Made by a program: the position numbers and the translations under genes. The notes under the pieces are model-generated. The model was given only the letters and a program-made list of their open reading frames with translations. It was not told the DNA's origin and made no database searches. A DNA stretch of 64,000 bases from Lysobacterales bacterium (GTDB taxonomy: Bacteria > Pseudomonadota > Gammaproteobacteria > Xanthomonadales > SZUA-36). Location of the stretch: contig WVWV01000033.1 of NCBI GenBank assembly GCA_011773845.1, forward strand, positions 7,113 to 71,112. Reading direction: 5' to 3'. Numbering within the stretch: position 1 is the stretch's first letter; every line of letters starts with the position of its first letter. This document shows positions 18,417 to 45,649 of the stretch, in pieces.

Positions 18417-19937
<1,521 letters not shown>

Positions 19938-19953
19938 CCTCGCGTTCCTGTGT

Positions 19954-21477: not shown

Positions 21478-21485
21478 CGGCCCGC

Positions 21486-22352
21486 TCAGGTGTCCGCGGG
21501 GGACTGCATGACGGCCAGCGCCTGCCGCCGCCACGCCTCGGTCTGTTCCACCTGGTTGAAACTGAACACATGGCAGCCGGCGATGTCGAGCGACTCCTCG
21601 TGCAGCAGCGGCGCTAGCGCCCGCAACAGCGCGTCGGGCGTGTACACCGAGGCGCTCAGGAAGCGCGCCACGGCATCCCGTTTGCGGCGCAGGAACCGCA
21701 GCGAGTCGCCGACGCCGATGCGCAGCGATGTCTTCAGCAGGGTGGCCCGGTCGGACACGCCCGGAATGCCGATCCAGGCCGGCAAGCGGACGCCGCGTGC
21801 CCGGATCGCCCGCAGCCACCGCCCCAGCAGCTGGACATCGAAGCACATCTGCGTCACCAGGTAGGTCGCCAGCGCCTGCTTGCGCTCCAGCTCCGCCAGC
21901 AGCACATCCGCGGCCACCTCCGGGTGGCCCTCCGGGTGGGTGGCAATGCCGATCTCCGCGAAACGGTGGTCGTACTCGGAAATGGCCTGCAGCAATTGCC
22001 AGGCGGTGCCGAACGGGCCGAGCGGCCTGGCGGCGTCGCCACCCGGCACGAAGATGCTGTCCACGGGCAGGTCTTCGAGACGGGCCATGATCTCCCTGAG
22101 GTGCCCGTCGCCCCGCACCATCTTGGCGGCGATGTGCGGCACCACGCGAAAACCCCGGTCCGCCAGGCGGTGCGTCAGATCCAGGGTGGCATCGACCCCC
22201 TTCGTGGGAGAACAGGAAACCGACACGAAGGATCCGGGCGCCAGGTCGGCCAGGCGCCGCTCGATGCTGGGGGTGGGAAAGATCTCCAGGTACGCCTCGC
22301 GCACGAGATGCTCGAGGGCGGCGTCCCGGGGCAGGTTCGGGCTGCCCTTCAT
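21486..22352 (-). CDS. Methylenetetrahydrofolate reductase (MetF)-like protein, paralogue 2
   Basis: The 288-aa tail of ORF 21486-23660 has normal composition ('...SVSCSPTKG...', 'YLVTQMCFD...'). The ATG at 22352 overlaps the upstream stop as ATGA. The N-terminal 436 aa of the long ORF are shadow-like. Confidence 0.8.
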   Translation of the reverse strand: MKGSPNLPRDAALEHLVREAYLEIFPTPSIERRLADLAPGSFVSVSCSPTKGVDATLDLTHRLADRGFRVVPHIAAKMVRGDGHLREIMARLEDLPVDSIFVPGGDAARPLGPFGTAWQLLQAISEYDHRFAEIGIATHPEGHPEVAADVLLAELERKQALATYLVTQMCFDVQLLGRWLRAIRARGVRLPAWIGIPGVSDRATLLKTSLRIGVGDSLRFLRRKRDAVARFLSASVYTPDALLRALAPLLHEESLDIAGCHVFSFNQVEQTEAWRRQALAVMQSPADT

Positions 22353-24343
22353 TCTTGCCTGCGCCTCCGCTGCGGGCGCGCCTTCGACGGCAGGTCGACG
22401 GCGCGCCGCAATTCGGTGAACGGGTCGCTGGCGTGCGGAATGGCCATGGCGGCCACGAAATGCGCCTGGAAGCGTTCCTCGACCGCGGTCTCGATTTTCT
22501 CCACGCGCCGCACCTGCTGCTGGATCAGCGCCCGGGAGGCACGGTCCAGCAGGGCCACGCGCGCGCCCGTGCCGGCCGCGTTGCCGGCGGATGACACCTG
22601 TTCCAGGTCGCAGTCCGGGATCATGCCCAGCACCATCGCGTACTTGACGTCGATCTGCGCGCCGAACGCGCCCGCCAGCCGTATGCGGTCCACCCGCTCC
22701 ACGCCGAGCTTCTCCATCAGCAGCCGGGCGCCGGCGTAGAGGGCCGCCTTGGCCAGCTGGATGGCGCGCACGTCGTTCTGGCGGATCACGATGTGCGGCT
22801 CGCCGTCCCACAGCCGGTAGGCATGGGTGCGCCCGTCCGGCACGACGCGCTCGCTGCGTGCCGCCAGCCGGCCATCGATACGGCCGTCGGCGTCGATCAC
22901 GCCCGCCAGGTAGAGCTCGGCCACCGCCTCGATGATGCCGGAGCCGCAGATGCCGGTGACCCCGCCGTCCGGCAGGCGGTCCCGGAAGTCCGGCTCGTCC
23001 GACCAGGCATCGCTGCCGATGACCCTGAACCGCGGCTCCAGGCTGGCGGCGTCGACCCGCACGCGTTCGATGGCGCCGGGCGCCGCCCGCTGGCCGGCAC
23101 TGATCTGGGCGCCCTCGAATGCCGGCCCGGTGGGGCTCGAAGCCGCCAGCAGCCGGTCGCGGTTGCCCAGCACCAGCTCGGCATTGGTGCCGACATCGAC
23201 GATCAGCGAGACCTCGTCCCGGTCCCAGGGCGCCTCCGCCAGCAGGACGCCCGCCATATCCGCGCCCACGTGCCCGGCGATGCATGGCAGCACATAGGCG
23301 TATCCGCCCGGATGGATGCCGATTTCCAGTTCGCGGGCCGCAATGCTCACCGCCGCATCGCTGGCCAGCGCGAACGGGGCCTGCCCCAGCTCGCTCGGAT
23401 CGTAGCCGAGCACCAGGTGCTGCATGATGGGATTGCCCACCAGCGTAAGTTCCAGTACGTCCTCGACCTGCAAGCCCGCGCCATCGGTCAGCTCGGCCAC
23501 CAGGCCGTTGATGGCCTCCCGCACCACCCGGGTGAGTTCGGCCTCGCCACCCGGGTTCATCATGATGTAGGAGACCCGGCTCATCAGGTCCTCGCCAAAG
23601 CGAATCTGCGGGTTCATGCGCCCGCCACTGGCCAGCACTTCGCCGCTGGTCAGGTCGCACAGGTGCGCGGCGATGGTGGTGGAGCCGATGTCAAAGGCGA
23701 TACCGTACAGCCGCCCCTTGAAACCGGGCCACACACCGACGATCTCGTTGCCATTATGGATGGCGACGGTCACCCGCCACTGGCCCTCGCGCAGCGCCCG
23801 CTGCAGGGCCTGGGTCATGCGCAGATCCCAGTAATGGGCCTCGATGCCCCACTCCCGCTGCAGCGCCTCGCGCAGCCGTTCCAGGTCGCCGCGTGGGTCG
23901 TGCATGTCGGGCGGCGCCACTTCGACGAAATAGGGATGCACCATCGGATCGACGCGGATGTCGTGCGCCTCGTGCGGCTTGCGCACCACCTGGCGGTGCA
24001 CCTGGCTGGTGGCGGGCACATCGATGGCCACGTCACCCAGGATACGGGCCTGGCAGCCGAGACGATGCCCCTCCGGCAGGTCCCGTCGTTCGCGGTAGCG
24101 GGCTTCCGCTTCACCCTCCGCCGACAGGTGCTCCGTGCGCGATACGATGCCGTGCTTGGCGAGTTCACCGGCGGTGGGAAGCACCTGGCAACGCCCGCAG
24201 ATCGCCCGCCCGCCGCAGACCGAATCCAGATCCACTCCGAGGCTGCGTGCCGCCTCCAGCACCGCCGTGCCCTCCGCAAAGCGCCCGCGCTTTCCCGAGG
24301 GGGAGAACACCACCCGGCATTCGGGATGATCGGCGCCGGTCAT
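22349..24343 (-). CDS. RACo-like reductive activase of corrinoid enzymes (2Fe-2S ferredoxin domain + ASKHA/DUF4445 ATPase domain)
   Basis: 664 aa. N-terminal plant-type ferredoxin motif 'CGGRAICGRCQV...GCQA', then ASKHA-type 'GIAFDIGSTTIA' and 'DVGTNAE..' plus 'GICGSG'. Start at ATG 24343. Confidence 0.85.
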   Translation of the reverse strand: MTGADHPECRVVFSPSGKRGRFAEGTAVLEAARSLGVDLDSVCGGRAICGRCQVLPTAGELAKHGIVSRTEHLSAEGEAEARYRERRDLPEGHRLGCQARILGDVAIDVPATSQVHRQVVRKPHEAHDIRVDPMVHPYFVEVAPPDMHDPRGDLERLREALQREWGIEAHYWDLRMTQALQRALREGQWRVTVAIHNGNEIVGVWPGFKGRLYGIAFDIGSTTIAAHLCDLTSGEVLASGGRMNPQIRFGEDLMSRVSYIMMNPGGEAELTRVVREAINGLVAELTDGAGLQVEDVLELTLVGNPIMQHLVLGYDPSELGQAPFALASDAAVSIAARELEIGIHPGGYAYVLPCIAGHVGADMAGVLLAEAPWDRDEVSLIVDVGTNAELVLGNRDRLLAASSPTGPAFEGAQISAGQRAAPGAIERVRVDAASLEPRFRVIGSDAWSDEPDFRDRLPDGGVTGICGSGIIEAVAELYLAGVIDADGRIDGRLAARSERVVPDGRTHAYRLWDGEPHIVIRQNDVRAIQLAKAALYAGARLLMEKLGVERVDRIRLAGAFGAQIDVKYAMVLGMIPDCDLEQVSSAGNAAGTGARVALLDRASRALIQQQVRRVEKIETAVEERFQAHFVAAMAIPHASDPFTELRRAVDLPSKARPQRRRRQE

Positions 24344-24362
24344 GTGCAAACCGCCGCCTCGC

Positions 24363-25265
24363 TCAACGCCGCGGCGGCCGGCGCCGGCGACCGCCGCGGC
24401 GACCCCGTTCGACGCCTGCCCCCGAATCCCGATAGGCGCCGATCCACGCCGCGCACTCGGCGTCATGGCCCATGACCACATTGGCCGCGCGCACCGCCTG
24501 CATCAGCTCGGGCTTGAGTGGATTGGTGATCGCCGAGGTCATCCCGCCCGCGATGGCCATGCCGATGAAGGTGGCGTTCAGTCCTTCCCGGTTCGGCAGG
24601 CCGAAACTGAGATTGGAAGCCCCGCAGGTGGTGTTGACCCGCAACTCCTCGCGCAGGCGCCGCACGATGTGCATGACCTGCCGCCCGGCGGCATTGATGG
24701 CCCCAATGGGCATGACCAGCGGGTCCACCACCACGTCGGACCGCGCAATGCCGTGATCCTCGGCGCGCTCGACGATCTTCTTCGCCACCTCGAAGCGCAC
24801 GTCCGGGTCCTCCGAGATGCCGGTATCGTCGTTGGAGATGGCCACCACCGCGCAGCCGTGCTTCCTGACCAGCGGCAGCACCCGTTCGAGCCGTTCCTCC
24901 TCGCCGGTCACCGAGTTCAGCAAGGCCTTTCCCTGGTAGGCCTGCAGGCCGCTTGCCAACGCCTCGATGACCGACGAGTCGATGCACAGCGGGACGTCGG
25001 TGACCGCCTGGATCAGGCGGATGCACTCGGCCATGATGGCCGGCTCGTCGGCCAGCGGTACGCCGGCATTCACGTCCAGCACCTGGGCTCCGGCCGCGAC
25101 CTGGGCCAGGGCATCCGCCTCGACCCGGCCATAATCGCCGGCCTTCAGCTCCGCTGCCAGCAAACTGCGGCCGGTGGGATTGATGCGCTCCCCGATCACC
25201 ACGAAGGGCCGCCCGAAGCCGATCACCACCTCGCGGCTGGCGGAACTGATGACGGTATCCGTCAT
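24363..25265 (-). CDS. Methyltetrahydrofolate:corrinoid methyltransferase (pterin-binding / dihydropteroate-synthase-like barrel)
   Basis: 'VVIGERINPTGR', 'VLDVN', 'LCIDSS' and 'NSV' are hallmarks of the MeTr/AcsE/MetH pterin-binding domain. Start at ATG 25265. The C-terminus is Arg-rich ('GRRGGRRRRPPRR'). Confidence 0.85.
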   Translation of the reverse strand: MTDTVISSASREVVIGFGRPFVVIGERINPTGRSLLAAELKAGDYGRVEADALAQVAAGAQVLDVNAGVPLADEPAIMAECIRLIQAVTDVPLCIDSSVIEALASGLQAYQGKALLNSVTGEEERLERVLPLVRKHGCAVVAISNDDTGISEDPDVRFEVAKKIVERAEDHGIARSDVVVDPLVMPIGAINAAGRQVMHIVRRLREELRVNTTCGASNLSFGLPNREGLNATFIGMAIAGGMTSAITNPLKPELMQAVRAANVVMGHDAECAAWIGAYRDSGAGVERGRRGGRRRRPPRR

Positions 25266-25305
25266 GCCCGTCGCCTGCCCGGCTGTTGCCTGTGGGCGCC
25301 CGCCA

Positions 25306-25614
25306 TCACCGGGCGCTCGCCCCGGCTCGGCCACCGGCCTTGACCACCCGCTCCAGCTCGGCCGGCGGGAAGCGGCGCTCCAGCGCGCGGGCCCGCTCGC
25401 GGACCAACTGCTCGAGATCGCCCTCGAGCAGTTCCGTCTCGCGGCGCCAGTCTTCCAGGTACGCAGCGCTCGAACCTCGCCCGGCCCGCATCGCGGCCCG
25501 GTCGATGGCCTGTTGGAACCGTGGCTCCAGTTCCTGCTTGCAGCGCTGGCGGCCCTGTTTGCCCACCACCTGGGCCGGGATGTCCCGCCAGTAAATGCTG
25601 GTCAGCTTCACCAT
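25306..25614 (-). CDS. Small conserved protein of the family often annotated 'virulence factor' that accompanies DUF1638/corrinoid clusters
   Basis: 102 aa starting 'MVKLTSIYWRDIPAQVV'. The start overlaps the DUF1638 stop by 7 nt. The family name comes from memory of similar neighbourhoods and is not verified. Confidence 0.55.
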   Translation of the reverse strand: MVKLTSIYWRDIPAQVVGKQGRQRCKQELEPRFQQAIDRAAMRAGRGSSAAYLEDWRRETELLEGDLEQLVRERARALERRFPPAELERVVKAGGRAGASAR

Positions 25615-26204
25615 GCGGCCACCCGATTCCGCAGCACGGCCTCCAGCGGCGCCAGGCCGGTCGGATGTGGATGGAACTCCAGTTTCAGGTAGCGGGCGCA
25701 CTCGCGCGCCCGCTCGGACAATCCGGGCGTATCCGACTGCGCCAGGTAAACGACCCGGCGGTAGTTGCCAAAGTAGCTGTCCCGCAGCTCGGGGTGCCGG
25801 TCGAGGCCCAGCCCGCGCACCACCAGGCGCTCGAAATGCCGCACAAGGAAGTCGGTCAGGTAGAAAGTGCCGGGCTCATCGTTCGCCAGGCGCTCGAAGC
25901 GGCTCGCGCCCGCGAAGAACTGGTAGCAGTGCGCGCCCGGCAGGCGCTCCACGCCATACTCGGTCAGCACGCGGTCCAGCGCCCCGCCGGTCCCGCAGTC
26001 GCCATAGGCGACGAACATGCGGACCCCGTCGGCGCGGTGGCGCTCGATGGCCGTCCGGACCGCACCCGGTATCCGCTGGGGGGTGTTGTGCAGTTCCGCG
26101 GGCAGGCACTGTACGCGCAGCGCCGCCCAGCGGTTGCGGCGCTTGAGTTCAACCAGCTCACGAGCCAGCGCCCCACAGGCGATGATGAGGATTCGCATCG
26201 TCAT
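25608..26204 (-). CDS. DUF1638-domain protein
   Basis: 'MRILIIACGALARE...' and 'FVAYGDCGTGGALD' are typical DUF1638 motifs. Start at ATG 26204 (GGAG 4 nt upstream) or 26198. Confidence 0.7.
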   Translation of the reverse strand: MTMRILIIACGALARELVELKRRNRWAALRVQCLPAELHNTPQRIPGAVRTAIERHRADGVRMFVAYGDCGTGGALDRVLTEYGVERLPGAHCYQFFAGASRFERLANDEPGTFYLTDFLVRHFERLVVRGLGLDRHPELRDSYFGNYRRVVYLAQSDTPGLSERARECARYLKLEFHPHPTGLAPLEAVLRNRVAAW

Positions 26205-26229
26205 CGCACTCCGAGCCCCGCGCTCCCGC

Positions 26230-26931
26230 TCAGCCGGCCTGTCGCCGCTCCATGACCAACTGCTTGGCGACCTCGACGGCGGTGGCGGCATCCCGGCAAT
26301 AGGCGTCCGCGCCGACCGCCTTGCCGAACTCCTCGTTGAGCGGAGCGCCGCCCACCAGCACGATGTAATCGTCGCGGATGCCCTGCTCCTTCATGGCGTC
26401 GATCACCACCTTCATGTAGGGCATCGTGGTGGTCAGCAGGGCCGACATGCCGAGGATGTCCGGTCGCTCGCGCTGCAGGGCATCGATGTAGGCGTCGGCG
26501 TCGGTGTTGATGCCGAGGTCGACGATTTCGAAGCCCGCGCCTTCCATCATCATCCCCACGAGGTTCTTGCCGATATCGTGGATGTCGCCCTTGACGGTGC
26601 CGATCACCATCTTGCCGACCGGCTCGGCACCGGTCTCCGCCAGCAGCGGGCGCAGGATCGCCATGCCGGCCTTCATCGCGTTGGCCGCCAGCAGCACCTC
26701 GGGCACGAACAGGATGCCGTCGCGAAAGTCCTCGCCAACGATGTTCATGCCCGCCACCAGCGCCTCGTCCAGCAGCTTCTTCGGGTCCCAGCCACGCTCC
26801 AGCAAGATCTGCGTGCCCTCGGCGATCTCCTCGGCCAGGCCGTCGTACAGGTCGTCCCACATCTGCTCGACCAGTTCCTCGTCACCAAGTTCGGCGAGCA
26901 CCAGGTCGTCCGTGTCGTGTTCCTGCGTCAT
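26230..26931 (-). CDS. Corrinoid (cobalamin-binding) methyl-carrier protein
   Basis: B12-binding cap helices followed by the Rossmann domain with the DxHxxG motif 'GDIHDIGKN', then 'SALLTTT' and 'VGGAP'. Start at ATG 26931 or GTG 26940. Confidence 0.9.
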   Translation of the reverse strand: MTQEHDTDDLVLAELGDEELVEQMWDDLYDGLAEEIAEGTQILLERGWDPKKLLDEALVAGMNIVGEDFRDGILFVPEVLLAANAMKAGMAILRPLLAETGAEPVGKMVIGTVKGDIHDIGKNLVGMMMEGAGFEIVDLGINTDADAYIDALQRERPDILGMSALLTTTMPYMKVVIDAMKEQGIRDDYIVLVGGAPLNEEFGKAVGADAYCRDAATAVEVAKQLVMERRQAG

Positions 26932-27037
26932 CGCGTCCACCGCTCAGAAAAAACCACCTGGATCATGCCGACCCCGATGGTTTTGAACCCGCATCTTCCG
27001 ACACTTGCCGGGCGCAGTCAATGAGCCCCGCCGTGGC

Positions 27038-28243
27038 TCAGCCATCCGCGCCCACGGCCTCCAGGTACCATTGGAGAAATTTCCAGGTGTAGGTCTCGAT
27101 GCCGGACAGCGGCCCCGGCTCGTAAAACCGCGAGCCCACCCCGCGCGCGTTGTTTTCGATGATGCGCTTGTCGGCCTCGGTGGTCACGTCCCACAACCAG
27201 GTCAGCTGCTCGACGTCGTAGTCCTCGCCCGCGCGCGCATTCCCGTTGACCAGCCAGGTGATGTCGCATTCGCTGCGCCCGATCCCGGACGGCCGGAAGG
27301 CATAGACCACGACGTAATCGCAGTAGGCGAGCGCGAACGTCACCGGCCCCACCTGGAAGTCGGTCGCCCCGCCGTAGTAATCGGAGATGTCGCCCAGCAG
27401 CGGCGCCACCGGCTGCCCGTCCTGGCTGCCCGTGAGGTGGCCGCGAATGAGGGGGTAGCGCTCGTAGAGGAAATCCGCCCCGAAGCCCGTCGCATCGCGG
27501 TAGATGCGGTTCACCTGCGCGTCGCTCATGCCGCAGGCGGGTGCGCGCTCGAACATCTCGCCGTACATCTCGCTGGTTTTCAGATCCGGGTGCGCCAGGA
27601 TGTGGCCGCGCGAGTACTCGGGGTGGGCCGGCGCGCAGTGGTAGCACTCGGTATAGTTCTCCACCGCCAGCTTCCAGTTCGCGGCCATCGGATACACCTG
27701 GCGGTGGGCCACCCGGGCCCCGTCGAGCCGATAGGGTGCCAGGCACTCGGAAAGCGCCGCGCGGACCGGCTCGAATGCCGCCGGGCGGGCGGCGAAATTG
27801 ACGAAAATCAGCCCCTCGAGCACCTCGCAGGCGATGCGCTTGAGGCTCAACTCCGATGGGTCGAAGTCCTCACCCATGTGTGCCGCGGATCGCAGCCGCC
27901 CGTCCAGGTCGTAACTCCAGCCATGATACGGGCAGGTCAGCAGCTTGCCGCGGCCCCGGGGCAGCAGGCAAATCCGGGAGCCGCGATGCCGGCACACGTT
28001 GACCAGCGCCTGCACGCGGTCTTTCGCGGCACGCACCACGATCACCGATTCCCGTTCCAGGTTGAACAGCATCCAGTCGCCGACGTTGGGAATTTCGCTC
28101 AGGTGGCCGGCGTACAGCCACGAGCGCATGAAGATGCGCTCGATGTCCCGACGATAGATTTCGGGCTCGGTGTAGAAGGCCTGGTCCAGCGCCCGCATGC
28201 GGGGATGGGCCGAGGCGAGACGGTCGATGGCCTGCGAATCCAT
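27038..28243 (-). CDS. Rieske [2Fe-2S] non-haem-iron oxygenase alpha subunit, betaine/carnitine-type (GbcA/Stc2/CntA-like)
   Basis: Rieske motif 'CRHRG...CPYHGW' and catalytic-domain motif 'NWKLAVENYTECYHCAPAHPEY'. ATG at 28243 is preceded by GGAGGA. The upstream 239 aa of ORF 27038-28960 are shadow-like. Confidence 0.9.
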   Translation of the reverse strand: MDSQAIDRLASAHPRMRALDQAFYTEPEIYRRDIERIFMRSWLYAGHLSEIPNVGDWMLFNLERESVIVVRAAKDRVQALVNVCRHRGSRICLLPRGRGKLLTCPYHGWSYDLDGRLRSAAHMGEDFDPSELSLKRIACEVLEGLIFVNFAARPAAFEPVRAALSECLAPYRLDGARVAHRQVYPMAANWKLAVENYTECYHCAPAHPEYSRGHILAHPDLKTSEMYGEMFERAPACGMSDAQVNRIYRDATGFGADFLYERYPLIRGHLTGSQDGQPVAPLLGDISDYYGGATDFQVGPVTFALAYCDYVVVYAFRPSGIGRSECDITWLVNGNARAGEDYDVEQLTWLWDVTTEADKRIIENNARGVGSRFYEPGPLSGIETYTWKFLQWYLEAVGADG

Positions 28244-28272
28244 GCGAACTATTCCTCCGAGCTGACCATGGC

Positions 28273-29076
28273 TCACTCCGCCGCCGCTTGCCGGCGGTTG
28301 AGCATGGCGGCCACCAGGACGATTACCGAGACCAGCAGGATGATGACCGTTGCCAATGCGTTGATGTCCGGGGTCACGCCCAGCCTGACCTTGGAGAAGA
28401 TCAGCATCGGCAGGGTCGTAGCCCCCGGCCCGGACACGAAGCTCGCGATCACGACGTCGTCCAGCGACAGGGTGAACGCCAGCAGCCAGCCCGAGACCAT
28501 CGCCGGGGCGATGGCGGGCACGGTGATGTCGAAGAACACCCGCAGCGGCCGCCCGCCCAGGTCCATGGCCGCTTCCTCGAGGGCCTGGTCCATGCCGCTG
28601 AGGCGCGAGCGCACCACGACCGCCACGTAGGCCATGGAAAACGTCACGTGCGCGATGGTGATGGTGGTGGCGCCGCGACTGGCCGGCCAGCCAATCCATT
28701 CGCCCAGCGAGATGAACAGGAACAACAGGGAAATGCCGGTGATGATCTCCGGCATCACCAGCGGCGCGGTGATCATGCCGGTCAGCAGGGTGCGCCCACG
28801 GAAGCGGCCCAGCCGGTTGAGCCCCAGGCCCACCAGCGTGCCCATCACGGTGGCCAGGGTGGCGGCCACGAAGGCGATCTGCAGGCTCAGCCACGCGGAC
28901 GACAGGATCGCCTCGTCCTGCAGCAGCGAACGGTACCAGCGCAGCGAGAAGCCACCCCACAGCGTGACCAGGCGCGAGTCGTTGAACGAATACACCATGA
29001 CCGAAATGATCGGCACGTACAGGAACGCGTAGCCGAAGGCGACGACACTGAGCAGCAGCGTGTGGCGTTGCCTCAT
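28273..29076 (-). CDS. Polyamine-type ABC transporter permease (PotC/PotI-like)
   Basis: 267 aa with six hydrophobic spans and the EAA loop 'LEEAAMDLGGRPLRVFFDITVP'. The start overlaps the upstream permease stop by 4 nt. Confidence 0.9.
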   Translation of the reverse strand: MRQRHTLLLSVVAFGYAFLYVPIISVMVYSFNDSRLVTLWGGFSLRWYRSLLQDEAILSSAWLSLQIAFVAATLATVMGTLVGLGLNRLGRFRGRTLLTGMITAPLVMPEIITGISLLFLFISLGEWIGWPASRGATTITIAHVTFSMAYVAVVVRSRLSGMDQALEEAAMDLGGRPLRVFFDITVPAIAPAMVSGWLLAFTLSLDDVVIASFVSGPGATTLPMLIFSKVRLGVTPDINALATVIILLVSVIVLVAAMLNRRQAAAE

Positions 29077-29990
29077 ACCAGCCTCCGCTCGGCGCGCCCC
29101 GCCTGGGTCTTCTGGAACCACATCATCGGCAACACCAGGATCAGCAACAGCACCACGGACACCGCCGAGGCCACCGGCCAATCCCGGTTGATGAAGAACT
29201 CGTCCCACAGCGCGCGCCCGATCATGAGCGTGTCCGAGCCACCCAGCAGGGCCGGAATGATGAATTCGCCGATGGCCGGGATGAACACCAGCAGGCTGCC
29301 GCCCACGATGCCGGGCACCGACAGCGGCAAGGTGACGTCGCGGAACACCTGCCAGCGGCGGGCACCGAGATCGGCCGCCGCCTCCTCGAGGTCCCGGTCC
29401 ATGCGCTCGAGGATGGCATAAAGCGGCAGGATCATGAACGGCAGGTAGCTGTAGACGATGCCCAGGTAGACCGCGAAATCGTTGTAGATGAGCACCAGCG
29501 GTTGCTCGATCAGCCCCGATTTCAGCAGCAGGTTGTTGATCACGCCCTTGGTGTTGAGCAGGCCGATCCAGGCATACACGCGCAGCAGGAACGAGATCCA
29601 GAACGGCAGGATGACGGCCAGCAACAGCACGTTGCGGCGCCCGGGCGGCTGGCGGGCGATGAAATAGGCCATGGGATAGCCGATCAGCAGGCACAGCACG
29701 GTGCTGATCGCGGCCATCTTGATGGAGTTCAGATAGATGACCCCGTAATAACGGTCCTGGAACAGGAACAGGTAGTTGTCGATGGTCGCGTGGATTCGCT
29801 GCCATCCGCTCGCTGCCCAGTCGAGCAAGGGGGTGAAGGGCGGCAGCGCCACCAGCGGGTCGGCCAGACTGATCTTGAGGATGATGAGGAACGGCGCCAG
29901 GAAGAACACCAACAGCCAGGCGTAGGGCGGCAACAGGGCGCGCCGCAGCCACAGCGTCCGACGGTCGCCGCCCGGCGCCAACCAGCTCAT
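29073..29990 (-). CDS. Polyamine-type ABC transporter permease (PotB/PotH-like)
   Basis: 305 aa with EAA loop 'LEEAAADLGARRWQVFRDVTLP' and a typical PotB/PotH topology. Confidence 0.9.
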   Translation of the reverse strand: MSWLAPGGDRRTLWLRRALLPPYAWLLVFFLAPFLIILKISLADPLVALPPFTPLLDWAASGWQRIHATIDNYLFLFQDRYYGVIYLNSIKMAAISTVLCLLIGYPMAYFIARQPPGRRNVLLLAVILPFWISFLLRVYAWIGLLNTKGVINNLLLKSGLIEQPLVLIYNDFAVYLGIVYSYLPFMILPLYAILERMDRDLEEAAADLGARRWQVFRDVTLPLSVPGIVGGSLLVFIPAIGEFIIPALLGGSDTLMIGRALWDEFFINRDWPVASAVSVVLLLILVLPMMWFQKTQAGRAERRLV

Positions 29991-30011
29991 TGCGTGCGTA
30001 CTCCCCTCACG

Positions 30012-31178
30012 TCATTCATCCAGCAGGATCGCGCTGGGCTCCTGCCAGGACACCCAGACCTCGTCATCCCACTCCACCGTCTTGCGCGCCGTGCGCATGC
30101 GGTTCTGGCCGCTCACCTGCAGAATCTTGCCGCTTTGCAAGCGCACCCGGTACAGCGACAGGTTGCCGTAGTAGCCGAGGTCCTCCACCACCCCGCGCAG
30201 GGCCGCCAGCCCCTCGCCCGCGGGCGCTTCCTTGCTGATGAAGATCTTCTCCGGCCGCACCGCCAACCAGCACGCATGGCCCACCGGCAATGCCGCCGAG
30301 CGCTCGACACGAGCGGCCAGCGTACCCCCGGCCTCCTCGCACTCGACTTCCACGCGCTCGCCGACGACCGCCTTGACGTGGCCGGCCAGCAGGTTGACCT
30401 TGCCAATGAATTCGGCGACGAACCGGTTGCGCGGGTACTCGTAGATTTCCCCCGGGGTGCCGACCTGCTCGAAGCGGCCATCGTTCATGACCACGATGCG
30501 GGTGGACAGCGTCATCGCTTCCTCCTGGTCGTGGGTCACGACGATGAAGGTGATGCCGAGCTCGTCCTGCAGGTTCATCAGCTCGAACTGGGTGTGCTCC
30601 CTGAGCTTCTTGTCGAGCGCCGCCAGCGGCTCATCCAGCAGCAGCAGCTTGGGGCGCTTGACCAACGCCCGGGCCAGCGCCACGCGCTGGCTCTCGCCCC
30701 CGGACAACTGGCGGGGCTTGCGGTTCGCGAGCCTGCCGAGCTTGACCATGTCCAGCATTTCGCCGACCCGCCGCCTGATGTCGGCGGCCGGCACGCCCTC
30801 CTTGCGGAGCCCATAGGCCACGTTCTGCGCCACGCTCATGTGCGGAAACAGCGCGTAGGACTGGAACATCATGTTGACCGGCCGCTCGTAGGGCGGCACG
30901 TCGGTCATGTCCACGCCGTCGATGAGGATGCGCCCGGCGGAGGGCGCCTCGAAACCGGCCAGCATGCGCAGCAGGGTGGTCTTGCCGGATCCCGAACCAC
31001 CCAGGATGCTGAACAACTCACCCGGGTAGATCTCCAGGTCCACGCCGTCCACCGCGGTGACCTCCCCGAACTGCTTGGCCAGGCCGCGTATTTCCACGAT
31101 CGGGCTCAGCGACGGATCCTGCCACGGTGCACCGCCGCTTCCGCCCGGACCGCCAACCGTCTGATTCGAGGCGTTCAT
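30012..31178 (-). CDS. Polyamine-type ABC transporter ATP-binding protein (PotA/PotG-like)
   Basis: Walker A 'GGSGSGKTT', signature 'LSGGESQR' and Walker B 'LLLLDEP', plus a C-terminal regulatory domain. Start at ATG 31178 or GTG 31190. Confidence 0.9.
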   Translation of the reverse strand: MNASNQTVGGPGGSGGAPWQDPSLSPIVEIRGLAKQFGEVTAVDGVDLEIYPGELFSILGGSGSGKTTLLRMLAGFEAPSAGRILIDGVDMTDVPPYERPVNMMFQSYALFPHMSVAQNVAYGLRKEGVPAADIRRRVGEMLDMVKLGRLANRKPRQLSGGESQRVALARALVKRPKLLLLDEPLAALDKKLREHTQFELMNLQDELGITFIVVTHDQEEAMTLSTRIVVMNDGRFEQVGTPGEIYEYPRNRFVAEFIGKVNLLAGHVKAVVGERVEVECEEAGGTLAARVERSAALPVGHACWLAVRPEKIFISKEAPAGEGLAALRGVVEDLGYYGNLSLYRVRLQSGKILQVSGQNRMRTARKTVEWDDEVWVSWQEPSAILLDE

Positions 31179-31199
31179 CGATCTTCCCACTCCCGGCGC

Positions 31200-32288
31200 T
31201 CAGAGCCCCGTCTTGATCCTCGACCACGCGCGGGTGCGCAGGCGCTCATCCTTGGGCCCGAAAATGAAGCCCAGGTCGTATTTCTCCGCATCCTGCTGCC
31301 GAGGATACAACAACGGGTTGGTGGTTATCTCCGGCAGCACGAACGGCCGCGACGCCTGGTTGGCGTTGGCATAGTAGGTGGTGTTGCTGATCGCCGCGAT
31401 GACCTCGGGGCGCAGCAGGTAATTGATGAACCGGTGGGCATTGCCGGGGTGCGGCGCGTCCACCGGTATGAACATGGCATCGAACCACAGCATCGAGCCC
31501 GTGTTCGGCACGGCATAGTCGAGGTTGACCGGCGCCCCGACCTCCTGGGCCCGGTTGGCGGCCGCCAGGTAGTCCCCCGACCAGCTCATGGCGACGCAGA
31601 TTTCACCGTTCGGCAGGTCGTTGATCATCTTGGCCGAGCTGAAATAGCGGATGTACGGCCGCACTGCCTTCAGTTGCCGCTCCGCCGCGGCAATGTGGGC
31701 CGGCTCCAGCGAGTTCGGATCGTGGCCGAGATATTGCAGGACCATCGGGATCACGTCGGTCGGCTCGTCCAGCAACGACACCCCGCAATCGGCCAGCTGC
31801 GCCACCACCTGCGGGTCGAACAGCAGGCGGCCACCGTCGATCGGGGCGTCGGCCAACCGCTGGCGGACCATGTCGACGTTGTAGGCCGCCCCCGTGGTGC
31901 CCCACATGAACGGCACGCCGAAGCGGTTGCCCGGGTCATACTGGGCAACCACGCTCATGACCCACGGGTCGAGATTGGAGCGCAGCGGCAGGCGGTCCAT
32001 TTCCAGCGGCTGGTAGACGTCCACCGCAATCAGCCGCGCCGAATAACGGTAGCCGTGGAACACCACGTCGTAGCCGGTCTTGCCGGCCAGCAGCCGCGCC
32101 TCCACGATCTCGGTCGAATCGTAGGTGTCGTAATTCACCCGGATGCCGAATTCTTCCTCGAAGTCGGCGATGGTGCCCGGCGCGATGTAATCCGCCCAGT
32201 TGTAGATATTGAGCACCGCCTCCTCGGCCACCGCGGCGGCGCTGGCGAGAGCAGCCGCCAGCAGGATGCCATGAGCCCGGCGCAGCAC
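31200..32288 (-). CDS. Periplasmic polyamine-type substrate-binding protein (PotD/PotF family), copy 2
   Basis: Signal peptide 'LLAAALASAAAVA' followed by 'VLNIYNWADYIAP', typical of PotF/PotD proteins. Confidence 0.9.
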   Translation of the reverse strand: MLRRAHGILLAAALASAAAVAEEAVLNIYNWADYIAPGTIADFEEEFGIRVNYDTYDSTEIVEARLLAGKTGYDVVFHGYRYSARLIAVDVYQPLEMDRLPLRSNLDPWVMSVVAQYDPGNRFGVPFMWGTTGAAYNVDMVRQRLADAPIDGGRLLFDPQVVAQLADCGVSLLDEPTDVIPMVLQYLGHDPNSLEPAHIAAAERQLKAVRPYIRYFSSAKMINDLPNGEICVAMSWSGDYLAAANRAQEVGAPVNLDYAVPNTGSMLWFDAMFIPVDAPHPGNAHRFINYLLRPEVIAAISNTTYYANANQASRPFVLPEITTNPLLYPRQQDAEKYDLGFIFGPKDERLRTRAWSRIKTGL

Positions 32289-32290
32289 GT

Positions 32291-33400
32291 CTACAGCCCC
32301 GTCTTGATGCGCGACCAGGCCCGGCTCCGGGTGCGCTCCTGCTTGGGCCCGAAGATGCGGCCCGCCTGCCAGCCGGTGCGTTGGCCCAGCGGTGGATAGG
32401 AGGCGGGGTCGTTGGCGATGCGAGGCTCCAGCCAGGGCAGCGAGGCCCGGTTGGCGTTGGCGTAACCAATCAGGTTGCTGATGTCCGCAATCACCCTGGG
32501 CCGCATCAGGAAATTCAGAAACAGGTGGGCGTTGCCCGGGTGCGGCGCGTCGCTGGGGATCAGCAGGCTGTCAAACCACAGCACGGTGCCCTCCACCGGC
32601 ACCGAGTAGGCGAGCTGGACCCCGGTGCCACCCTGTTGCGCCCGGCCCTGGGCCTGCGCGAAGTCGCCCGACCAGGCCATGGCGATGCAGACCTCGCCGC
32701 TGGGCAGATCATTGAGCAGCTTCGCCGAGCTGAAGTAGCGCACATATGGGCGGACCGACTTGAGCACCGCCTCGGCGGCCGCCAGGTGCTCGCCGTCCAT
32801 GCTGTTCGGATCGTGCCCCAGGTAGACCATCACCATCGGGATCACCGTGGTGGGCTCGTCCAGCAGCGTGATGCCGCAGTCCGCAAAGCGGGCGGCCACC
32901 TCCGGATCGAACAGCATCCGCGCGCTGTCCACCGGCGCCTCCGGCCAGCGGCTGCGGACCAGGTCGACGTTGTAGACGAATCCGGTCGTGCCCCACATGT
33001 AGGGGGCGCCGTAAGTGTTGCCGGGGTCGAATTCGGCCATGAAACCCAGCACCCACGGATCGAGGTTGTCCCACAAGCTCAGCCGGTCGCGGTCCAGTGG
33101 CTGGAACGCGCCCACCGCGATCAGCCGGGCCGAGTAGCGTATCGCCTGCAGCACGACGTCGTAGCCGGTGCGCCCCGTCACCAGCTTGGCCTCCGCCATA
33201 GCGGTCGAGTCGTAGGTGTCGTAATTGACGCGGATGCCGTATTCGGCCTCGAATTCGGCCAGCGTGGAGGCGCCGATGTAATCCGCCCAGTTGTAGAAGT
33301 TCAGCACCGGCTCTTCGGCATCCGGCGCCGCGAGCATCGGCAACGGCCACGCGAGCAGTGCGCCGAGCGCAGCGGTCCGCAGCCACCGCGCGGCCGGCAC
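32291..33400 (-). CDS. Periplasmic polyamine-type substrate-binding protein (PotD/PotF family), copy 1
   Basis: Signal peptide 'ALGALLAWPLPMLAA' followed by 'VLNFYNWADYIG'. Collinear with copy 2 but clearly diverged. Confidence 0.9.
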   Translation of the reverse strand: MPAARWLRTAALGALLAWPLPMLAAPDAEEPVLNFYNWADYIGASTLAEFEAEYGIRVNYDTYDSTAMAEAKLVTGRTGYDVVLQAIRYSARLIAVGAFQPLDRDRLSLWDNLDPWVLGFMAEFDPGNTYGAPYMWGTTGFVYNVDLVRSRWPEAPVDSARMLFDPEVAARFADCGITLLDEPTTVIPMVMVYLGHDPNSMDGEHLAAAEAVLKSVRPYVRYFSSAKLLNDLPSGEVCIAMAWSGDFAQAQGRAQQGGTGVQLAYSVPVEGTVLWFDSLLIPSDAPHPGNAHLFLNFLMRPRVIADISNLIGYANANRASLPWLEPRIANDPASYPPLGQRTGWQAGRIFGPKQERTRSRAWSRIKTGL

Positions 33401-33402
33401 CG

Positions 33403-34569
33403 TTACAGTTCCTCCAGCCCGCGCTTGTCCAGCGCGCGGGCGATGACCAGACGCTGCAGCTCGCTGGCGCCCTCCCAGATGCGGTCGACGCGGATTTCCC
33501 GCGTGAACCGCTCGGCGCAGTTCTCGCGCATGTAACCGCGGCCGCCGAAAATCTGTACCGCCCGGTCGGCGATCCGGCTAGCGGCCTCGGAGGCATACAG
33601 CTTGGCGATCGAGCAGCGGGCATGCAGCGACTTGACGTTCTCACCCCGGTCATGGGCATGCGCCGCCTCGAAGGTGATCAGGCGCGCCGCCCACAACTCC
33701 GTGACGCTGTCCGCCAGCATCGCCTGCACCAGTTGCTTGTCGATCAGCCGCTCGCCGCTGACCCGGCGCTGCTGCGCGAATTCGGTGGCTTCCTCGATCA
33801 GGCGCGTCGCCGCGCCGCAATCCCGCGCCGCGATCATCAGCCGCTCGCGACGAAACCAGCTGTGGGTGTATGCCATGCCCTCGCCCTCGGCGCCGATGCG
33901 GTTTTCCGCCGGCACCTCCACGTCCGTGAATTGCAGCTGTGGGTGGTGGTGATCGAAGGTGTGGCTGAACAGCGGGGTGCGCAGCACCTCGATGCCGGGG
34001 GATGCCCGGTCCACCAGGAACAGTGCCTCGCTGCCGGCATGCGGTCCGGAGGCGAGGCGCGCCTGCACGAACATGAAATCGGCCAGGTTGGCGCTGGTGA
34101 CATACCATTTCTCGCCGTTGATCCGGTAGCGGTCCCCGGCCACCTCGGCGGTCGTCTCGATCACCACGTCGGAGCCGGACTCCCGCTCGGTGATCGCGTA
34201 GCACTCCTTGCGGGTGCCCTGCATCAGGGGCAGGACATAGGCCTCGAGCTGCGCCTCGCGGCAGGCCTCGAACATCCATCGCTGCGGCTCGGAAAAACAC
34301 CAGCACAGGGCGTTGGTAACCCGGCCGAGCTGCTCCCACACCGCCACCTGGTCGACCGTGCGCAACTCCAGGCCGCCGTATTGGCGGGGCACGTCCATGG
34401 CGCTGAAACCCAGCTCCACGGCCATCTCTCGATGCCGCTTGCCCACCTCCGCCGGCAGCCGGCCGCCGTTCATCTCCGCCTCCACCTCGTGCGGTATGAG
34501 TTCCCGTTCCGCGAATTGCCGGGCCTTCGCCTGCCACTCGGTGGCCGTCGCGTCGAGTTGGATCTTCAT
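33403..34569 (-). CDS. Acyl-CoA dehydrogenase family protein
   Basis: 388 aa with 'CYAITERESGSD', 'NGEKWYVT' and 'IFGGRGYMRE...RIWEGASE'. The ATG at 34569 overlaps the TetR stop as ATGA. Confidence 0.9.
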   Translation of the reverse strand: MKIQLDATATEWQAKARQFAERELIPHEVEAEMNGGRLPAEVGKRHREMAVELGFSAMDVPRQYGGLELRTVDQVAVWEQLGRVTNALCWCFSEPQRWMFEACREAQLEAYVLPLMQGTRKECYAITERESGSDVVIETTAEVAGDRYRINGEKWYVTSANLADFMFVQARLASGPHAGSEALFLVDRASPGIEVLRTPLFSHTFDHHHPQLQFTDVEVPAENRIGAEGEGMAYTHSWFRRERLMIAARDCGAATRLIEEATEFAQQRRVSGERLIDKQLVQAMLADSVTELWAARLITFEAAHAHDRGENVKSLHARCSIAKLYASEAASRIADRAVQIFGGRGYMRENCAERFTREIRVDRIWEGASELQRLVIARALDKRGLEEL

Positions 34570-35225: not shown

Positions 35226-35320
35226 GTGCTTCCGGATCCTGTCATGGTCCTCATCCGCTCTGCGGTCCCGGGGCTTCACCGGCCGGGTCAAATATTAAGC
35301 ACATCCCCCCGATTATGCAA

Positions 35321-36747: not shown

Positions 36748-36764
36748 GCGAACAAGGATCGAGC

Positions 36765-39924: not shown

Positions 39925-39928
39925 CGAC

Positions 39929-41134: not shown

Positions 41135-41160
41135 GGCCAACCGGCGAAGCGGCCGCAGGC

Positions 41161-43245: not shown

Positions 43246-43274
43246 TCCAATGACGACACATCGAGGTGAGAGAC

Positions 43275-44807: not shown

Positions 44808-44810
44808 AGC

Positions 44811-45632: not shown

Positions 45633-45649
45633 CACCTGGAGAGAAGCCC

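What the first reader, a model, noticed from the sequence alone, without database searches (positions are those of the whole stretch)
27038..28243. Betaine-type Rieske oxygenase embedded between the importer and the corrinoid module, with no partner reductase in the window
Seen in sequence: 'CRHRG..CPYHGW' plus 'NWKLAVENYTECYHCAPAHPEY', with a strong GGAGGA RBS. No ferredoxin-NAD(P) reductase or flavodoxin-reductase-type gene is evident anywhere in the 64 kb. The only 2Fe-2S ferredoxin-like module is the N-terminus of the RACo-like gene.

Established knowledge: the ECYHC-containing subgroup includes glycine betaine monooxygenase GbcA, stachydrine demethylase Stc2 and carnitine oxygenase CntA. 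All act on quaternary amines and all need a dedicated reductase.

Inference: O2-dependent and corrinoid/THF-dependent attack on N-methyl groups would be co-expressed. This is mechanistically redundant unless the two act on different methyl groups or different pathway intermediates.
Basis: partly seen in the sequence, partly recalled or inferred. Interest (0 to 1): 0.6.

Follow-up and report, generated by a model that had tools for sequence, protein, structure and literature searches.

The report
Reductase-less quaternary-amine Rieske oxygenase clade
This gene encodes an intact iron-sulfur oxygenase of the kind that attacks methylated ammonium compounds, but it belongs to an unstudied branch that never has its electron-donor gene next door and sits in a breakdown island for a polyamine-like methylated amine, beside a vitamin-B12-dependent system that probably does the same first step without oxygen.

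Summary
Window 27038-28243 (-) encodes an intact 401-aa Rieske oxygenase alpha subunit with every cofactor ligand, a GGAGGA ribosome-binding site, and no FNR-type reductase or free ferredoxin on the 133-kb contig.

- It is a group V (quaternary-ammonium) Rieske oxygenase, not an aromatic ring hydroxylase.
- It is not GbcA: it scores 297 bits against a 670-bit cut-off.
- It lies in its own well-supported clade, closest in sequence and fold to Stc2/3N0Q. It nevertheless carries the aromatic residue (Tyr197) that marks the CntA/choline/benzalkonium subgroup.
- None of about 80 related loci has a reductase within 10 kb, whereas every sister-clade locus does.
- Its usual neighbours are PotF-type importers, flavin amine oxidases or dehydrogenases, GcvT and an aminotransferase. 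The corrinoid/MttB module is a recurrent but minority add-on.

Best reading: an O2-dependent first-step N-dealkylase for a cationic, polyamine-like methylated amine, fed by a reductase encoded elsewhere. It would be the B12-independent counterpart of the MttB route. The substrate and the electron donor are unknown.

First readers of this scan noted similar orphan Rieske genes in two other genomes.

The parts
27038..28243 (-). Rieske oxygenase alpha subunit, 401 aa (group V, uncharacterised clade). Ligands: C84/H86/C104/H107 for the Rieske cluster, E199 bridging, C200/C203 pair, H202/H207/D358 for Fe, Y197 at the CntA-Y203 position.
28252..28257 (-). GGAGGA ribosome-binding site, 8 nt before the ATG
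   Evidence: read directly
28273..33400 (-). PotF-type ABC importer: PotI (28273-~29076), PotH (29073-29990), PotG (30012-31190) and two PotF-like binding proteins (31200-32288, 32291-33400)
33403..35291 (-). Acyl-CoA dehydrogenase (33403-~34569) and a BetI-type TetR regulator (34566-35225/35291). The TetR-ACAD-Rieske order is conserved in the closest gammaproteobacterial loci.
18417..26940 (-). Corrinoid methyl-transfer module: corrinoid protein (26230-26940), DUF1638 (25608-26291), methyl-THF:corrinoid methyltransferase (24363-25334), RACo activase with an N-terminal 2Fe-2S domain (22349-24481), MTHFR-like (21486-~22350), and two amber-less MttB paralogues (19954-~21480, 18417-19997)
35416..47023 (+). 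Divergent operon: class III aminotransferase (35416-36747), two CrtI-family FAD amine oxidoreductases (36765-38384, ~38390-39924), GcvT-type folate protein (39929-41134), ADP-forming CoA ligase (41044-43245), PuuC-like aldehyde dehydrogenase (43266-44807), enoyl-CoA hydratase (44811-45632), gamma-glutamylputrescine-synthetase-like GS (45629-47023)
1529..3643 (-). Histamine/trimethylamine-dehydrogenase-family amine dehydrogenase (FMN, Fe-S, ADP/FAD domain). In 17 related loci its 44-52% identical homologues end -4 to +22 nt from a candidate Rieske start (15 of 17 have a candidate start within about 10 nt).
17007..18299 (+). DAO-family FAD amine oxidase (PuuB/pipecolate-oxidase-like), divergent from the MttB end of the array

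Best explanation
The gene encodes a functional alpha3-type group V Rieske monooxygenase from an uncharacterised clade. It most likely carries out the O2-dependent first step on a quaternary, or otherwise N-methylated, cationic polyamine-like amine brought in by the adjacent PotF-type importer. It would hydroxylate a carbon next to the nitrogen, most probably an N-methyl group. That releases formaldehyde and leaves a tertiary amine, which flavin enzymes can oxidise. Those enzymes are the two CrtI-family oxidases with GcvT and, in other lineages, a TMADH/histamine-dehydrogenase-type enzyme. The aminotransferase and aldehyde dehydrogenase then finish the pathway. Tyr197 would hold the ammonium head by a cation-pi contact, as Tyr203 does in CntA. 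Electrons would come from a redox partner encoded elsewhere. Candidates in this genome are a BenC-like Fer2-FNR fusion on contig C10 and a ferredoxin reductase plus putidaredoxin-type ferredoxin pair on contig C165. The downstream MttB/corrinoid module is read as the B12-dependent, O2-independent alternative for the same kind of step, because both chemistries can open a quaternary nitrogen that flavoenzymes cannot. Shown: gene integrity, clade placement, residue signature, conserved neighbours, clade-wide lack of a cis reductase. Inferred: substrate class, site of hydroxylation, electron donor, relation to MttB.
For: - Domains and ligands are intact.
- The family is large and conserved: 4454 hits, many at 60-73% identity.
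- The closest solved structures are 3N0Q and Stc2 (E 9e-68 and 7e-62; Foldseek TM 0.79), then CntA (TM 0.62), then aromatic RHOs (about 0.55).
- The clade is distinct: 98/94 support, against Vb 100/99 and Va 99/98.
- Tyr/Phe sits at the CntA-Y203 position in 87 of 88 clade members, and Asn in the 6 of 7 Stc2/GbcA-like rows where the motif was matched. The literature meaning of that residue is from PMC7948474. The Cys-X-X-Cys pair is from PMC10952381.
- Conserved neighbours among 50 loci with at least 19 kb: Pot genes 20-21, TetR 26, CrtI-like oxidase 15, GcvT 12.
- A TMADH/HADH-like gene lies within 10 kb in 22 loci and immediately upstream, on the same strand, in 17.
- The binding proteins score 331-357 bits to E. 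coli PotF.
- No reductase was found in about 80 loci, using four reductase probes and motif scans. The same probes find the reductase in every Vb/Va control locus.
- In 4 of 5 complete genomes, GbcB-architecture reductases lie far from the Rieske gene.
- Candidate donors exist in the own genome.
- MttB or a corrinoid protein sits next to this Rieske clade in several separate subclades.
- The genome lacks CbiD and CobN but has a B12 riboswitch before a BtuB-like receptor. This fits reliance on imported B12.
Against: - No member of the clade has been characterised, and no paper describing this cluster was found.
- The aromatic residue belongs, in the literature, to enzymes that hydroxylate a non-methyl carbon (CntA, OxyBAC, choline monooxygenase). 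N-demethylation is therefore not secured.
- The branching order among the three group V clades is unresolved: the AU test does not reject this clade grouping with Va (p = 0.149), and rooting on HcaE is unstable.
- The corrinoid module accompanies the gene in only about 11% of loci.
- The genome is 90% complete in 165 contigs, so a dedicated reductase or B12 synthesis genes could lie in the missing part.
- There are no expression data.
- The structure model is only of moderate confidence (pLDDT 67.6).
Confidence: 0.5

Rival explanations
1. It is a C-N-cleaving oxygenase in the manner of CntA or OxyBAC. It would hydroxylate the methylene next to the quaternary nitrogen and release trimethylamine (or another small amine) plus an aldehyde. 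The aldehyde dehydrogenase, CoA ligase, ACAD and hydratase would then process that aldehyde.
For: - Tyr/Phe at the CntA-Y203 position is the published signature of subgroup Va, whose members attack non-methyl carbons.
- The AU test does not reject a grouping with Va (p = 0.149).
- An aldehyde dehydrogenase, CoA ligase, ACAD and hydratase are in the island.
- MttB-family genes (the trimethylamine methyltransferase family) are adjacent.
Against: - Full-length sequence and fold are much closer to the demethylases Stc2/3N0Q. CntA and YeaW align only over the N-terminal 211 residues.
- Both MttB paralogues lack an in-frame amber codon. Characterised amber-less MttBs use quaternary amines, not trimethylamine (PMC8604678 abstract).
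- The most conserved neighbours are N-demethylation-type flavoenzymes with a GcvT folate partner and an aminotransferase. These imply that the nitrogen stays on the carbon skeleton.
Confidence: 0.2
2. The Rieske enzyme and the MttB/corrinoid system are not alternatives. They would act on different methyl groups, different nitrogen centres or different pathway intermediates. One example is MttB taking the quaternary step and the Rieske enzyme a later one. Another is that each handles one of two related substrates delivered by the two binding proteins.
For: - Stc2 can carry out two successive demethylations, down to proline, in the crystal (PMC10952381). Group V enzymes are therefore not restricted to quaternary nitrogen.
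- There are two binding proteins and two divergent MttB paralogues in one array.
- Rieske and MttB genes are juxtaposed repeatedly in unrelated lineages with non-orthologous MttBs at 25-29% identity. This could reflect complementary rather than duplicate roles.
Against: - Most clade members have no MttB within 10 kb and still have the full flavoenzyme/GcvT/aminotransferase set. The Rieske enzyme alone appears sufficient for entry into the pathway.
- Tertiary and secondary amines are already covered by two or three flavin amine oxidases or dehydrogenases in the island.
Confidence: 0.2
3. It is simply a divergent glycine betaine monooxygenase (GbcA/BmoA) or stachydrine demethylase that uses a shared cellular reductase.
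For: - GbcA is the only NCBIfam equivalog model that matches full length (297 bits).
- The regulator passes a BetI model (126.5 against a cut-off of 118).
- The closest solved structures are Stc2 and 3N0Q.
Against: - The score is far below the GbcA cut-off, and below the scores of Stc2 and 3N0Q (484-514 bits).
- It forms a separate clade.
- It has Tyr instead of the Asn of subgroup Vb.
- There is no adjacent GbcB, although all Vb-clade loci have one.
- The importer is PotF-like rather than a betaine-type ProX/OpuAC system.
Confidence: 0.05

Closest known systems
Stachydrine demethylase Stc2 (Sinorhizobium meliloti, PDB 3VCA/4QUP) and the uncharacterised 3N0Q protein of Ruegeria sp. TM1040: group Vb Rieske N-demethylases
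   Same: Full-length alignment at 34-35% identity, with Foldseek TM 0.79. The Rieske ligands, bridging Glu, Cys-X-X-Cys pair, His-His-Asp triad and the Trp equivalent to Stc2 W353 are all shared. No beta-subunit gene is adjacent.
   Different: It is a separate clade (98/94 support). Tyr197 replaces the Asn that defines Vb. No reductase is adjacent, whereas Vb loci have a GbcB-like gene next door. The neighbouring transporter is PotF-type, not a betaine transporter.
Glycine betaine monooxygenase GbcA/GbcB (BmoAB)
   Same: Same superclade. NCBIfam GbcA is the best full-length model hit. A BetI-like regulator is nearby.
   Different: It scores 297 bits against a 670-bit cut-off. There is no GbcB anywhere in the 90%-complete genome (best hit 68 bits, which is NqrF). 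It has the aromatic residue instead of Asn.
Carnitine monooxygenase CntA/CntB (YeaW/YeaX), choline monooxygenase, OxyBAC: group Va
   Same: Aromatic residue at the Y203 position. The motif N-Y-x-E-C-Y-H-C-x-P-A-H-P is nearly identical to that of YeaW. The bridging Glu and the Cys pair are shared.
   Different: Only the N-terminal ~210 residues align by sequence (34% identity). Fold similarity is lower (TM 0.62). The C-terminal half of the catalytic domain follows Stc2. There is no CntB-type partner next door.
MtgBCD(E) cobalamin-dependent glycine betaine demethylation in aerobic marine bacteria (PMC12478193)
   Same: The module downstream of the Rieske gene has the same parts: MttB-family methyltransferase, corrinoid protein, pterin-binding methyltransferase, RamA/RACo activase and DUF1638.
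   Different: That paper treats GbcAB and MtgBCDE as occurring in different organisms. Here a Rieske oxygenase and the corrinoid module lie in one array, behind a polyamine-type importer.

Membership tests
Group V (quaternary-ammonium) Rieske oxygenases | Rieske CXH...CXXH cluster ligands, 2-His-1-carboxylate iron site and bridging glutamate | tested here: met
   C84/H86/C104/H107, H202/H207/D358 and E199 align with Stc2 C86/H88/C106/H109, H204/H209/D360 and E201, and with the corresponding CntA residues.
Group V (quaternary-ammonium) Rieske oxygenases | Cys-X-X-Cys pair flanking the first iron-binding His (E-C-Y-H-C) | tested here: met
   C200 and C203. The motif ECYHC is present in all 88 clade rows.
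Group V (quaternary-ammonium) Rieske oxygenases | Clusters with CntA/Stc2/GbcA-type enzymes rather than with aromatic ring-hydroxylating alpha subunits; alpha-only, no beta subunit | tested here: met
   Trees. Foldseek ranks Stc2/3N0Q, then CntA, then aromatic RHOs. The flanking genes are PotI and the corrinoid protein, so there is no small-subunit gene.
Group V (quaternary-ammonium) Rieske oxygenases | Two-component system with a dedicated FNR/2Fe-2S reductase (GbcB, CntB, YeaX) | tested here: not met
   None on the contig. None within 10 kb in about 80 related loci, while control loci of Vb and Va all have one.
Group V (quaternary-ammonium) Rieske oxygenases | Oxidises a quaternary ammonium substrate | not testable with these tools
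   Needs an enzyme assay.
GbcA (glycine betaine monooxygenase oxygenase subunit, NCBIfam NF058607) | Score at or above the curated equivalog cut-off (670 bits) | tested here: not met
   297.5 bits. Stc2 scores 484, 3N0Q 498, and the S. meliloti GbcA-like protein 514.
Group Vb (Stc2, GbcA/BmoA: oxidative N-demethylases) | Asn at the position of CntA Y203 | tested here: not met
   Tyr197. 87 of 88 clade members have Tyr or Phe. The 6 of 7 Vb rows in which the motif was matched all have Asn.
Group Va (CntA, choline monooxygenase, OxyBAC) | Aromatic residue at position 203 for the cation-pi contact | tested here: met
   Tyr197 by alignment with YeaW. The definition comes from PMC7948474.
Group Va (CntA, choline monooxygenase, OxyBAC) | Phylogenetic placement inside the CntA-type clade | tested here: inconclusive
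   This clade and Va are each monophyletic and separate (98/94 and 99/98). A tree forcing them together is not rejected (AU p = 0.149). Sequence and fold are nearer to Vb.

The most novel reading that the evidence does not exclude
The clade has dispensed with an NAD(P)H reductase. Its Rieske cluster would be reduced by the amine-oxidising flavoproteins of the same pathway: the TMADH/histamine-dehydrogenase-type Fe-S flavoprotein that is translationally coupled to it in 17 loci, or the CrtI-family oxidases in this lineage. The two electrons released by oxidising the tertiary-amine product would then pay for the oxygenation of the next quaternary substrate, giving a redox-self-sufficient demethylation cascade. 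This would explain why about 80 loci lack a reductase while every sister-clade locus keeps one.
Probability: 0.1. Interest if true: 0.8.

Novelty: new variant of a known kind. Interest (0 to 1): 0.5.

Why it matters
Group V Rieske oxygenases are known from a handful of enzymes: CntA, GbcA, Stc2, plant choline monooxygenase and OxyBAC. This gene represents a third, large and widespread clade, found in Gamma- and Alphaproteobacteria and also in Bacteroidota, Acidobacteriota, Planctomycetota and Rhodothermota MAGs.

The clade mixes the signatures of the two described subgroups. It is consistently separated from any reductase gene. It marks an undescribed catabolic island for a cationic methylated amine taken up by polyamine-type transporters.

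Finding the substrate would add a nitrogen/C1 flux to marine and soil methylated-amine cycling. It would also test the published Va/Vb rule that ties the aromatic residue to reaction type. The side-by-side O2-dependent and B12-dependent systems would offer a natural case of B12-sparing enzyme redundancy, comparable to MetE/MetH.

Tried and rejected
No expression or habitat evidence could be obtained.
- The look-up of encoding contigs found nothing for the Marinihelvus homologue P0069.
- Four literature searches for the cluster or for newer group V members returned nothing beyond the CntA, Stc2 and MtgBCDE papers. The terms were Rieske+PYROXD2, Rieske+demethylase+marine, 'group V', and Rieske+aminomethyltransferase+polyamine+Ruegeria.
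- A sample of 300 genomes of the same class held no true GbcA above the cut-off. The tree therefore uses Stc2, 3N0Q and a S. meliloti GbcA-like/GbcB pair as Vb references, not Pseudomonas GbcA.
- Rooting on E. coli HcaE is unstable because its branch is very long. In the 121-row tree it makes this clade sister to Vb. In the 55-row careful tree it falls inside this clade with weak support (47/53). I therefore claim only three separate clades.
- Considered and rejected: the RACo N-terminal 2Fe-2S domain as the general donor, because most clade loci have no RACo.
- Considered and rejected: the ACAD as a universal partner, because it is confined to the closest gammaproteobacterial subclade (8 of 17 loci).
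- Considered and rejected: a B12 riboswitch controlling the Rieske gene, because there is none in the window.
- The terminator-like hairpin between the Rieske and corrinoid genes is no better than chance: 1 found against 0.9 expected.
- The AlphaFold model (pLDDT 67.6) was used only for fold ranking, not for pocket analysis.
Full report
**The observation**

The gene lies on the minus strand from the ATG at 28243 to the TGA at 27038-27040 and encodes 401 residues.
- GGAGGA sits 8 nt upstream of the ATG.
- The upstream permease gene ends at 28273, leaving a 29-nt gap.
- The corrinoid-protein gene starts 97 nt downstream, at 26940.
- Pfam finds a Rieske domain and the Ring_hydroxyl_A catalytic domain.
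- By alignment with Stc2 and YeaW, the ligands are C84/H86/C104/H107 (Rieske cluster), E199 (bridging carboxylate), H202/H207/D358 (iron) and the C200/C203 pair.
- The protein has thousands of relatives. The best is 96% identical, and dozens of 398-404-aa proteins are 60-73% identical and align end to end. The gene and its start are therefore real.

**The 'no reductase' claim**

Whole-genome scans with the GbcB model, NAD_binding_1, Fer2 and Reductase_C give nothing on the 133-kb contig C32 except the Fer2 domain at the N-terminus of the RACo gene. The genome is 2.73 Mb in 165 contigs and 90% complete.

**What kind of Rieske oxygenase it is**

Sequence search of the PDB gives these best hits:
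- 3N0Q, a structural-genomics protein of Ruegeria sp. TM1040 (9e-68);
- stachydrine demethylase Stc2 (7e-62);
- carnitine monooxygenase CntA, matching only over residues 19-211;
- aromatic dioxygenases, weaker still.

An AlphaFold model of moderate confidence (pLDDT 67.6) gives the same ranking by fold: 3N0Q/Stc2 TM 0.79, CntA 0.62, biphenyl-type about 0.55.

The NCBIfam GbcA equivalog model scores 297 bits against a cut-off of 670. On the same model, Stc2 scores 484, 3N0Q 498, a S. meliloti GbcA-like protein with an adjacent GbcB 514, and E. coli YeaW 154. The protein is therefore a relative of these enzymes and not a GbcA.

**Trees**

In a 121-row tree and a 55-row careful tree three groups stand out:
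- the query and 87 relatives, fetched from 185,579 species genomes, form one clade (SH-aLRT 95 in the large tree; UFBoot/SH-aLRT 98/94 in the careful tree);
- the Stc2/3N0Q/GbcA-like group is separate (100/99);
- the CntA/YeaW group is separate (99/98).

The order among the three is not settled. A tree forcing this clade together with the CntA group is not rejected (AU p = 0.149), and the very long HcaE outgroup branch attaches unstably.

**A mixed signature**

Quareshy et al. (PMC7948474) split group V into two subgroups.
- Va has Tyr or Phe at CntA position 203, making a cation-pi contact with the trimethylammonium group. Its members are CntA, plant choline monooxygenases and OxyBAC.
- Vb has Asn at that position. 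Its members are the N-demethylases Stc2 and GbcA/BmoA, whose substrate carboxylate binds the iron.

In this protein the position is Tyr197. The local motif N-Y-T-E-C-Y-H-C-A-P-A-H-P is almost that of YeaW (N-Y-L-E-C-Y-H-C-G-P-A-H-P), whereas Stc2 has N-N-R-E-C-Y-H-C-S-S-N-H-P. Across the tree rows, 87 of 88 clade members have Tyr or Phe, and the 6 of 7 Vb rows in which the motif was matched all have Asn. The rest of the catalytic domain, including the Trp equivalent to Stc2 W353 and the spacing to the Asp ligand, follows Stc2.

The clade thus has a Vb-like scaffold with the Va head-group residue. I did not find this described.

**The missing reductase is a clade trait**

I searched the 80 related loci, each with up to 10 kb on either side, using four reductase probes: S. 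meliloti GbcB-like, E. coli YeaX, and the genome's own BenC-like and NqrF proteins. I also used Fer2/FNR motif scans.
- No fused FNR-ferredoxin reductase appears in any locus. The only hits are one stand-alone ferredoxin (L083) and a RACo N-terminus (L013).
- The same probes find a GbcB-like gene directly beside the oxygenase in every Stc2/GbcA-like locus, even with only 1.5-kb flanks (L102, L086, L087, L088), and they find YeaX beside YeaW. The absence is therefore not a sensitivity problem.
- Annotated plasmid records agree. The Parasedimentitalea marina island and the solitary Shinella gene have no reductase, whereas the S. meliloti GbcA-like gene overlaps one.
- In four of five complete genomes that carry a clade member, a single GbcB-architecture reductase exists hundreds of kilobases away.

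In the window's own genome the possible donors are:
- a BenC-like Fer2-FAD-NAD protein at C10:27260-28309, beside haem-synthesis genes (210 bits to BenC);
- a ferredoxin reductase (Pyr_redox_2 + Reductase_C) with a putidaredoxin-type ferredoxin at C165:46549-48149, beside the Rnf genes;
- two plain FNRs and three small Rieske ferredoxins.

None is linked to this gene by any evidence.

**Neighbourhood**

The minus-strand array runs in this order:
- BetI-type TetR regulator;
- acyl-CoA dehydrogenase;
- two PotF-like binding proteins, PotG, PotH, PotI;
- the Rieske gene;
- corrinoid protein, DUF1638, methyl-THF:corrinoid methyltransferase, RACo, an MTHFR-like protein;
- two amber-less MttB paralogues.

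The two binding proteins score 357 and 331 bits to E. coli PotF. The imported compound therefore looks like a di- or polyamine, not a carboxylate betaine.

**Which neighbours travel with the Rieske gene**

Among 50 related loci with at least 19 kb:

| Neighbour | Loci |
|---|---|
| TetR | 26 |
| Pot genes | 20-21 |
| CrtI-like oxidase (at least 55% identical) | 15 |
| GcvT | 12 |
| Corrinoid protein | 2 |
| MttB-family gene | 4 |

- In the closest loci without the importer (L005, L008), the order is TetR-ACAD-Rieske, facing the aminotransferase/oxidase/GcvT/ligase operon.
- Over all fetched loci, MttB or a corrinoid protein lies within 10 kb in nine: L007, L013, L016, L018, L052, L060, L068, L074 and L076.
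- These nine fall in several separate subclades, and their MttBs are only 25-29% identical to those of the window. The juxtaposition has therefore arisen more than once.

A further partner emerged. The window's 704-aa protein at 1529-3643 belongs to the histamine/trimethylamine dehydrogenase family (592 bits to 3K30, 477 to TMADH).
- Homologues 44-52% identical lie within 10 kb in 22 loci.
- In 17 loci they sit immediately upstream of the Rieske gene on the same strand. The dehydrogenase stop lies -4 to +22 nt from a candidate Rieske start, and 15 of the 17 have a candidate start within about 10 nt.

**Mechanistic reading**

A quaternary nitrogen has no lone pair, so flavin amine oxidases and dehydrogenases cannot attack it. 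Two chemistries can:
- hydroxylation of a carbon next to the nitrogen by a Rieske oxygenase;
- methyl abstraction by Co(I) through an MttB-family enzyme.

Both give a tertiary amine. The TMADH-like or CrtI-like flavoenzymes, with GcvT trapping the C1 unit on folate, can then demethylate it further. An aminotransferase and an aldehyde dehydrogenase follow. This accounts for the recurrent company of the Rieske clade, and for why MttB genes are sometimes placed beside it.

I therefore read the Rieske enzyme as the O2-dependent entry step, and the corrinoid module as a B12-dependent alternative that conserves the methyl group.

Circumstantial support comes from B12 supply. The genome shows no CbiD or CobN, but has one cobalamin riboswitch in front of a BtuB-like receptor, with a BtuC-like permease nearby. 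B12 is probably imported and may be limiting. No riboswitch lies in the window.

The 2025 work on MtgBCDE in aerobic marine bacteria shows that such corrinoid systems operate in oxic organisms. It treats GbcAB and MtgBCDE as found in different organisms. Here both kinds lie in one array.

**What remains open**

- The substrate is unknown.
- The site of hydroxylation, methyl or methylene, is unknown. The Va-type Tyr keeps a CntA- or OxyBAC-like C-N cleavage alive as a rival.
- Whether the Rieske and MttB systems duplicate or complement each other is untested. Stc2 can remove two methyl groups in succession, so a later-step role is possible.
- The electron donor is unknown.
- The most novel reading not excluded is that the pathway's own amine-oxidising Fe-S flavoproteins reduce the Rieske cluster. 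That would explain the clade-wide loss of a reductase gene and the tight coupling to the TMADH-like gene. There is no precedent for this and I rate it at about 10%.

**Verdict**

It sits in an undescribed island for a methylated, polyamine-like amine. It is a new variant of a known kind of enzyme, of moderate interest, and directly testable.

First readers of this scan noted similar orphan GbcA/CntA-like genes in two other genomes. I checked the orphan status independently here.

Noticed in passing
window 18893-18992 (-), inside the MttB paralogue 18417-19997: Rfam PYLIS_3 (the pyrrolysine insertion element of mttB) matches at 41 bits, just over its 38-bit gathering score, although the ORF has no in-frame amber codon. 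It may be only coding-sequence homology to Pyl-type mttB.
   Followed up: no
window 1529-3643 (-): This is a histamine/trimethylamine-dehydrogenase-family amine dehydrogenase (592 bits to PDB 3K30). Its homologues are translationally coupled to the Rieske gene in 17 related loci, mostly Rhodobacterales. Here it lies 23 kb away, next to an MFS transporter.
   Followed up: partly
G000 C165:46549-49142 (-): A putidaredoxin-type 2Fe-2S ferredoxin, a ferredoxin reductase (Pyr_redox_2 + Reductase_C) and an FNR-like protein directly follow an Rnf operon and a large PFOR/NifJ-like gene. It is an unusual electron-transfer gene string and a possible donor for orphan oxygenases.
   Followed up: partly
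G000 C12:31319-31937 (+) and C162:219-725 (+): Two further Rieske oxygenase alpha-subunit genes (NVCPHRGN...CS[FY]H[SG]WQ) are cut by contig ends or masked bases. The genome has at least three such oxygenases, and their partners may lie in unassembled sequence.
   Followed up: no
window 45629-47023 (+), 43266-44807 (+), 17007-18299 (+): A gamma-glutamylputrescine-synthetase-like GS, a PuuC-like aldehyde dehydrogenase and a PuuB/pipecolate-oxidase-like DAO enzyme give the island a putrescine-utilisation (Puu) flavour alongside the demethylation genes.
   Followed up: partly
L007 11266-12072, L013 11195-12058, L016 1509-2309, L012 2427-3242: In related loci an MTHFR-like gene sits between the Rieske gene and the corrinoid protein. 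In the window the homologous gene is instead between RACo and MttB (21486-~22350), and a second MTHFR-like gene lies at 15951-16823.
   Followed up: partly
L101 (Parasedimentitalea marina plasmid pW43C) 7940-9142 and 23724-25185; also L036, L047, L054: Alphaproteobacterial and Arenicellales versions of the island carry a second, distantly related Rieske oxygenase (28-36% identical, motif VDNEGYHVP, no Cys pair). P. marina also has two SRPBCC/Ring_hydroxyl-like genes. Several oxygenases per island suggest several oxidative steps.
   Followed up: no
G000 C2:72074-72319 (-): This is the only cobalamin riboswitch in the genome. It precedes a BtuB-like TonB receptor, with a BtuC-like permease downstream. 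CbiD and CobN were not found in the 90%-complete assembly, which suggests B12 auxotrophy with salvage.
   Followed up: partly
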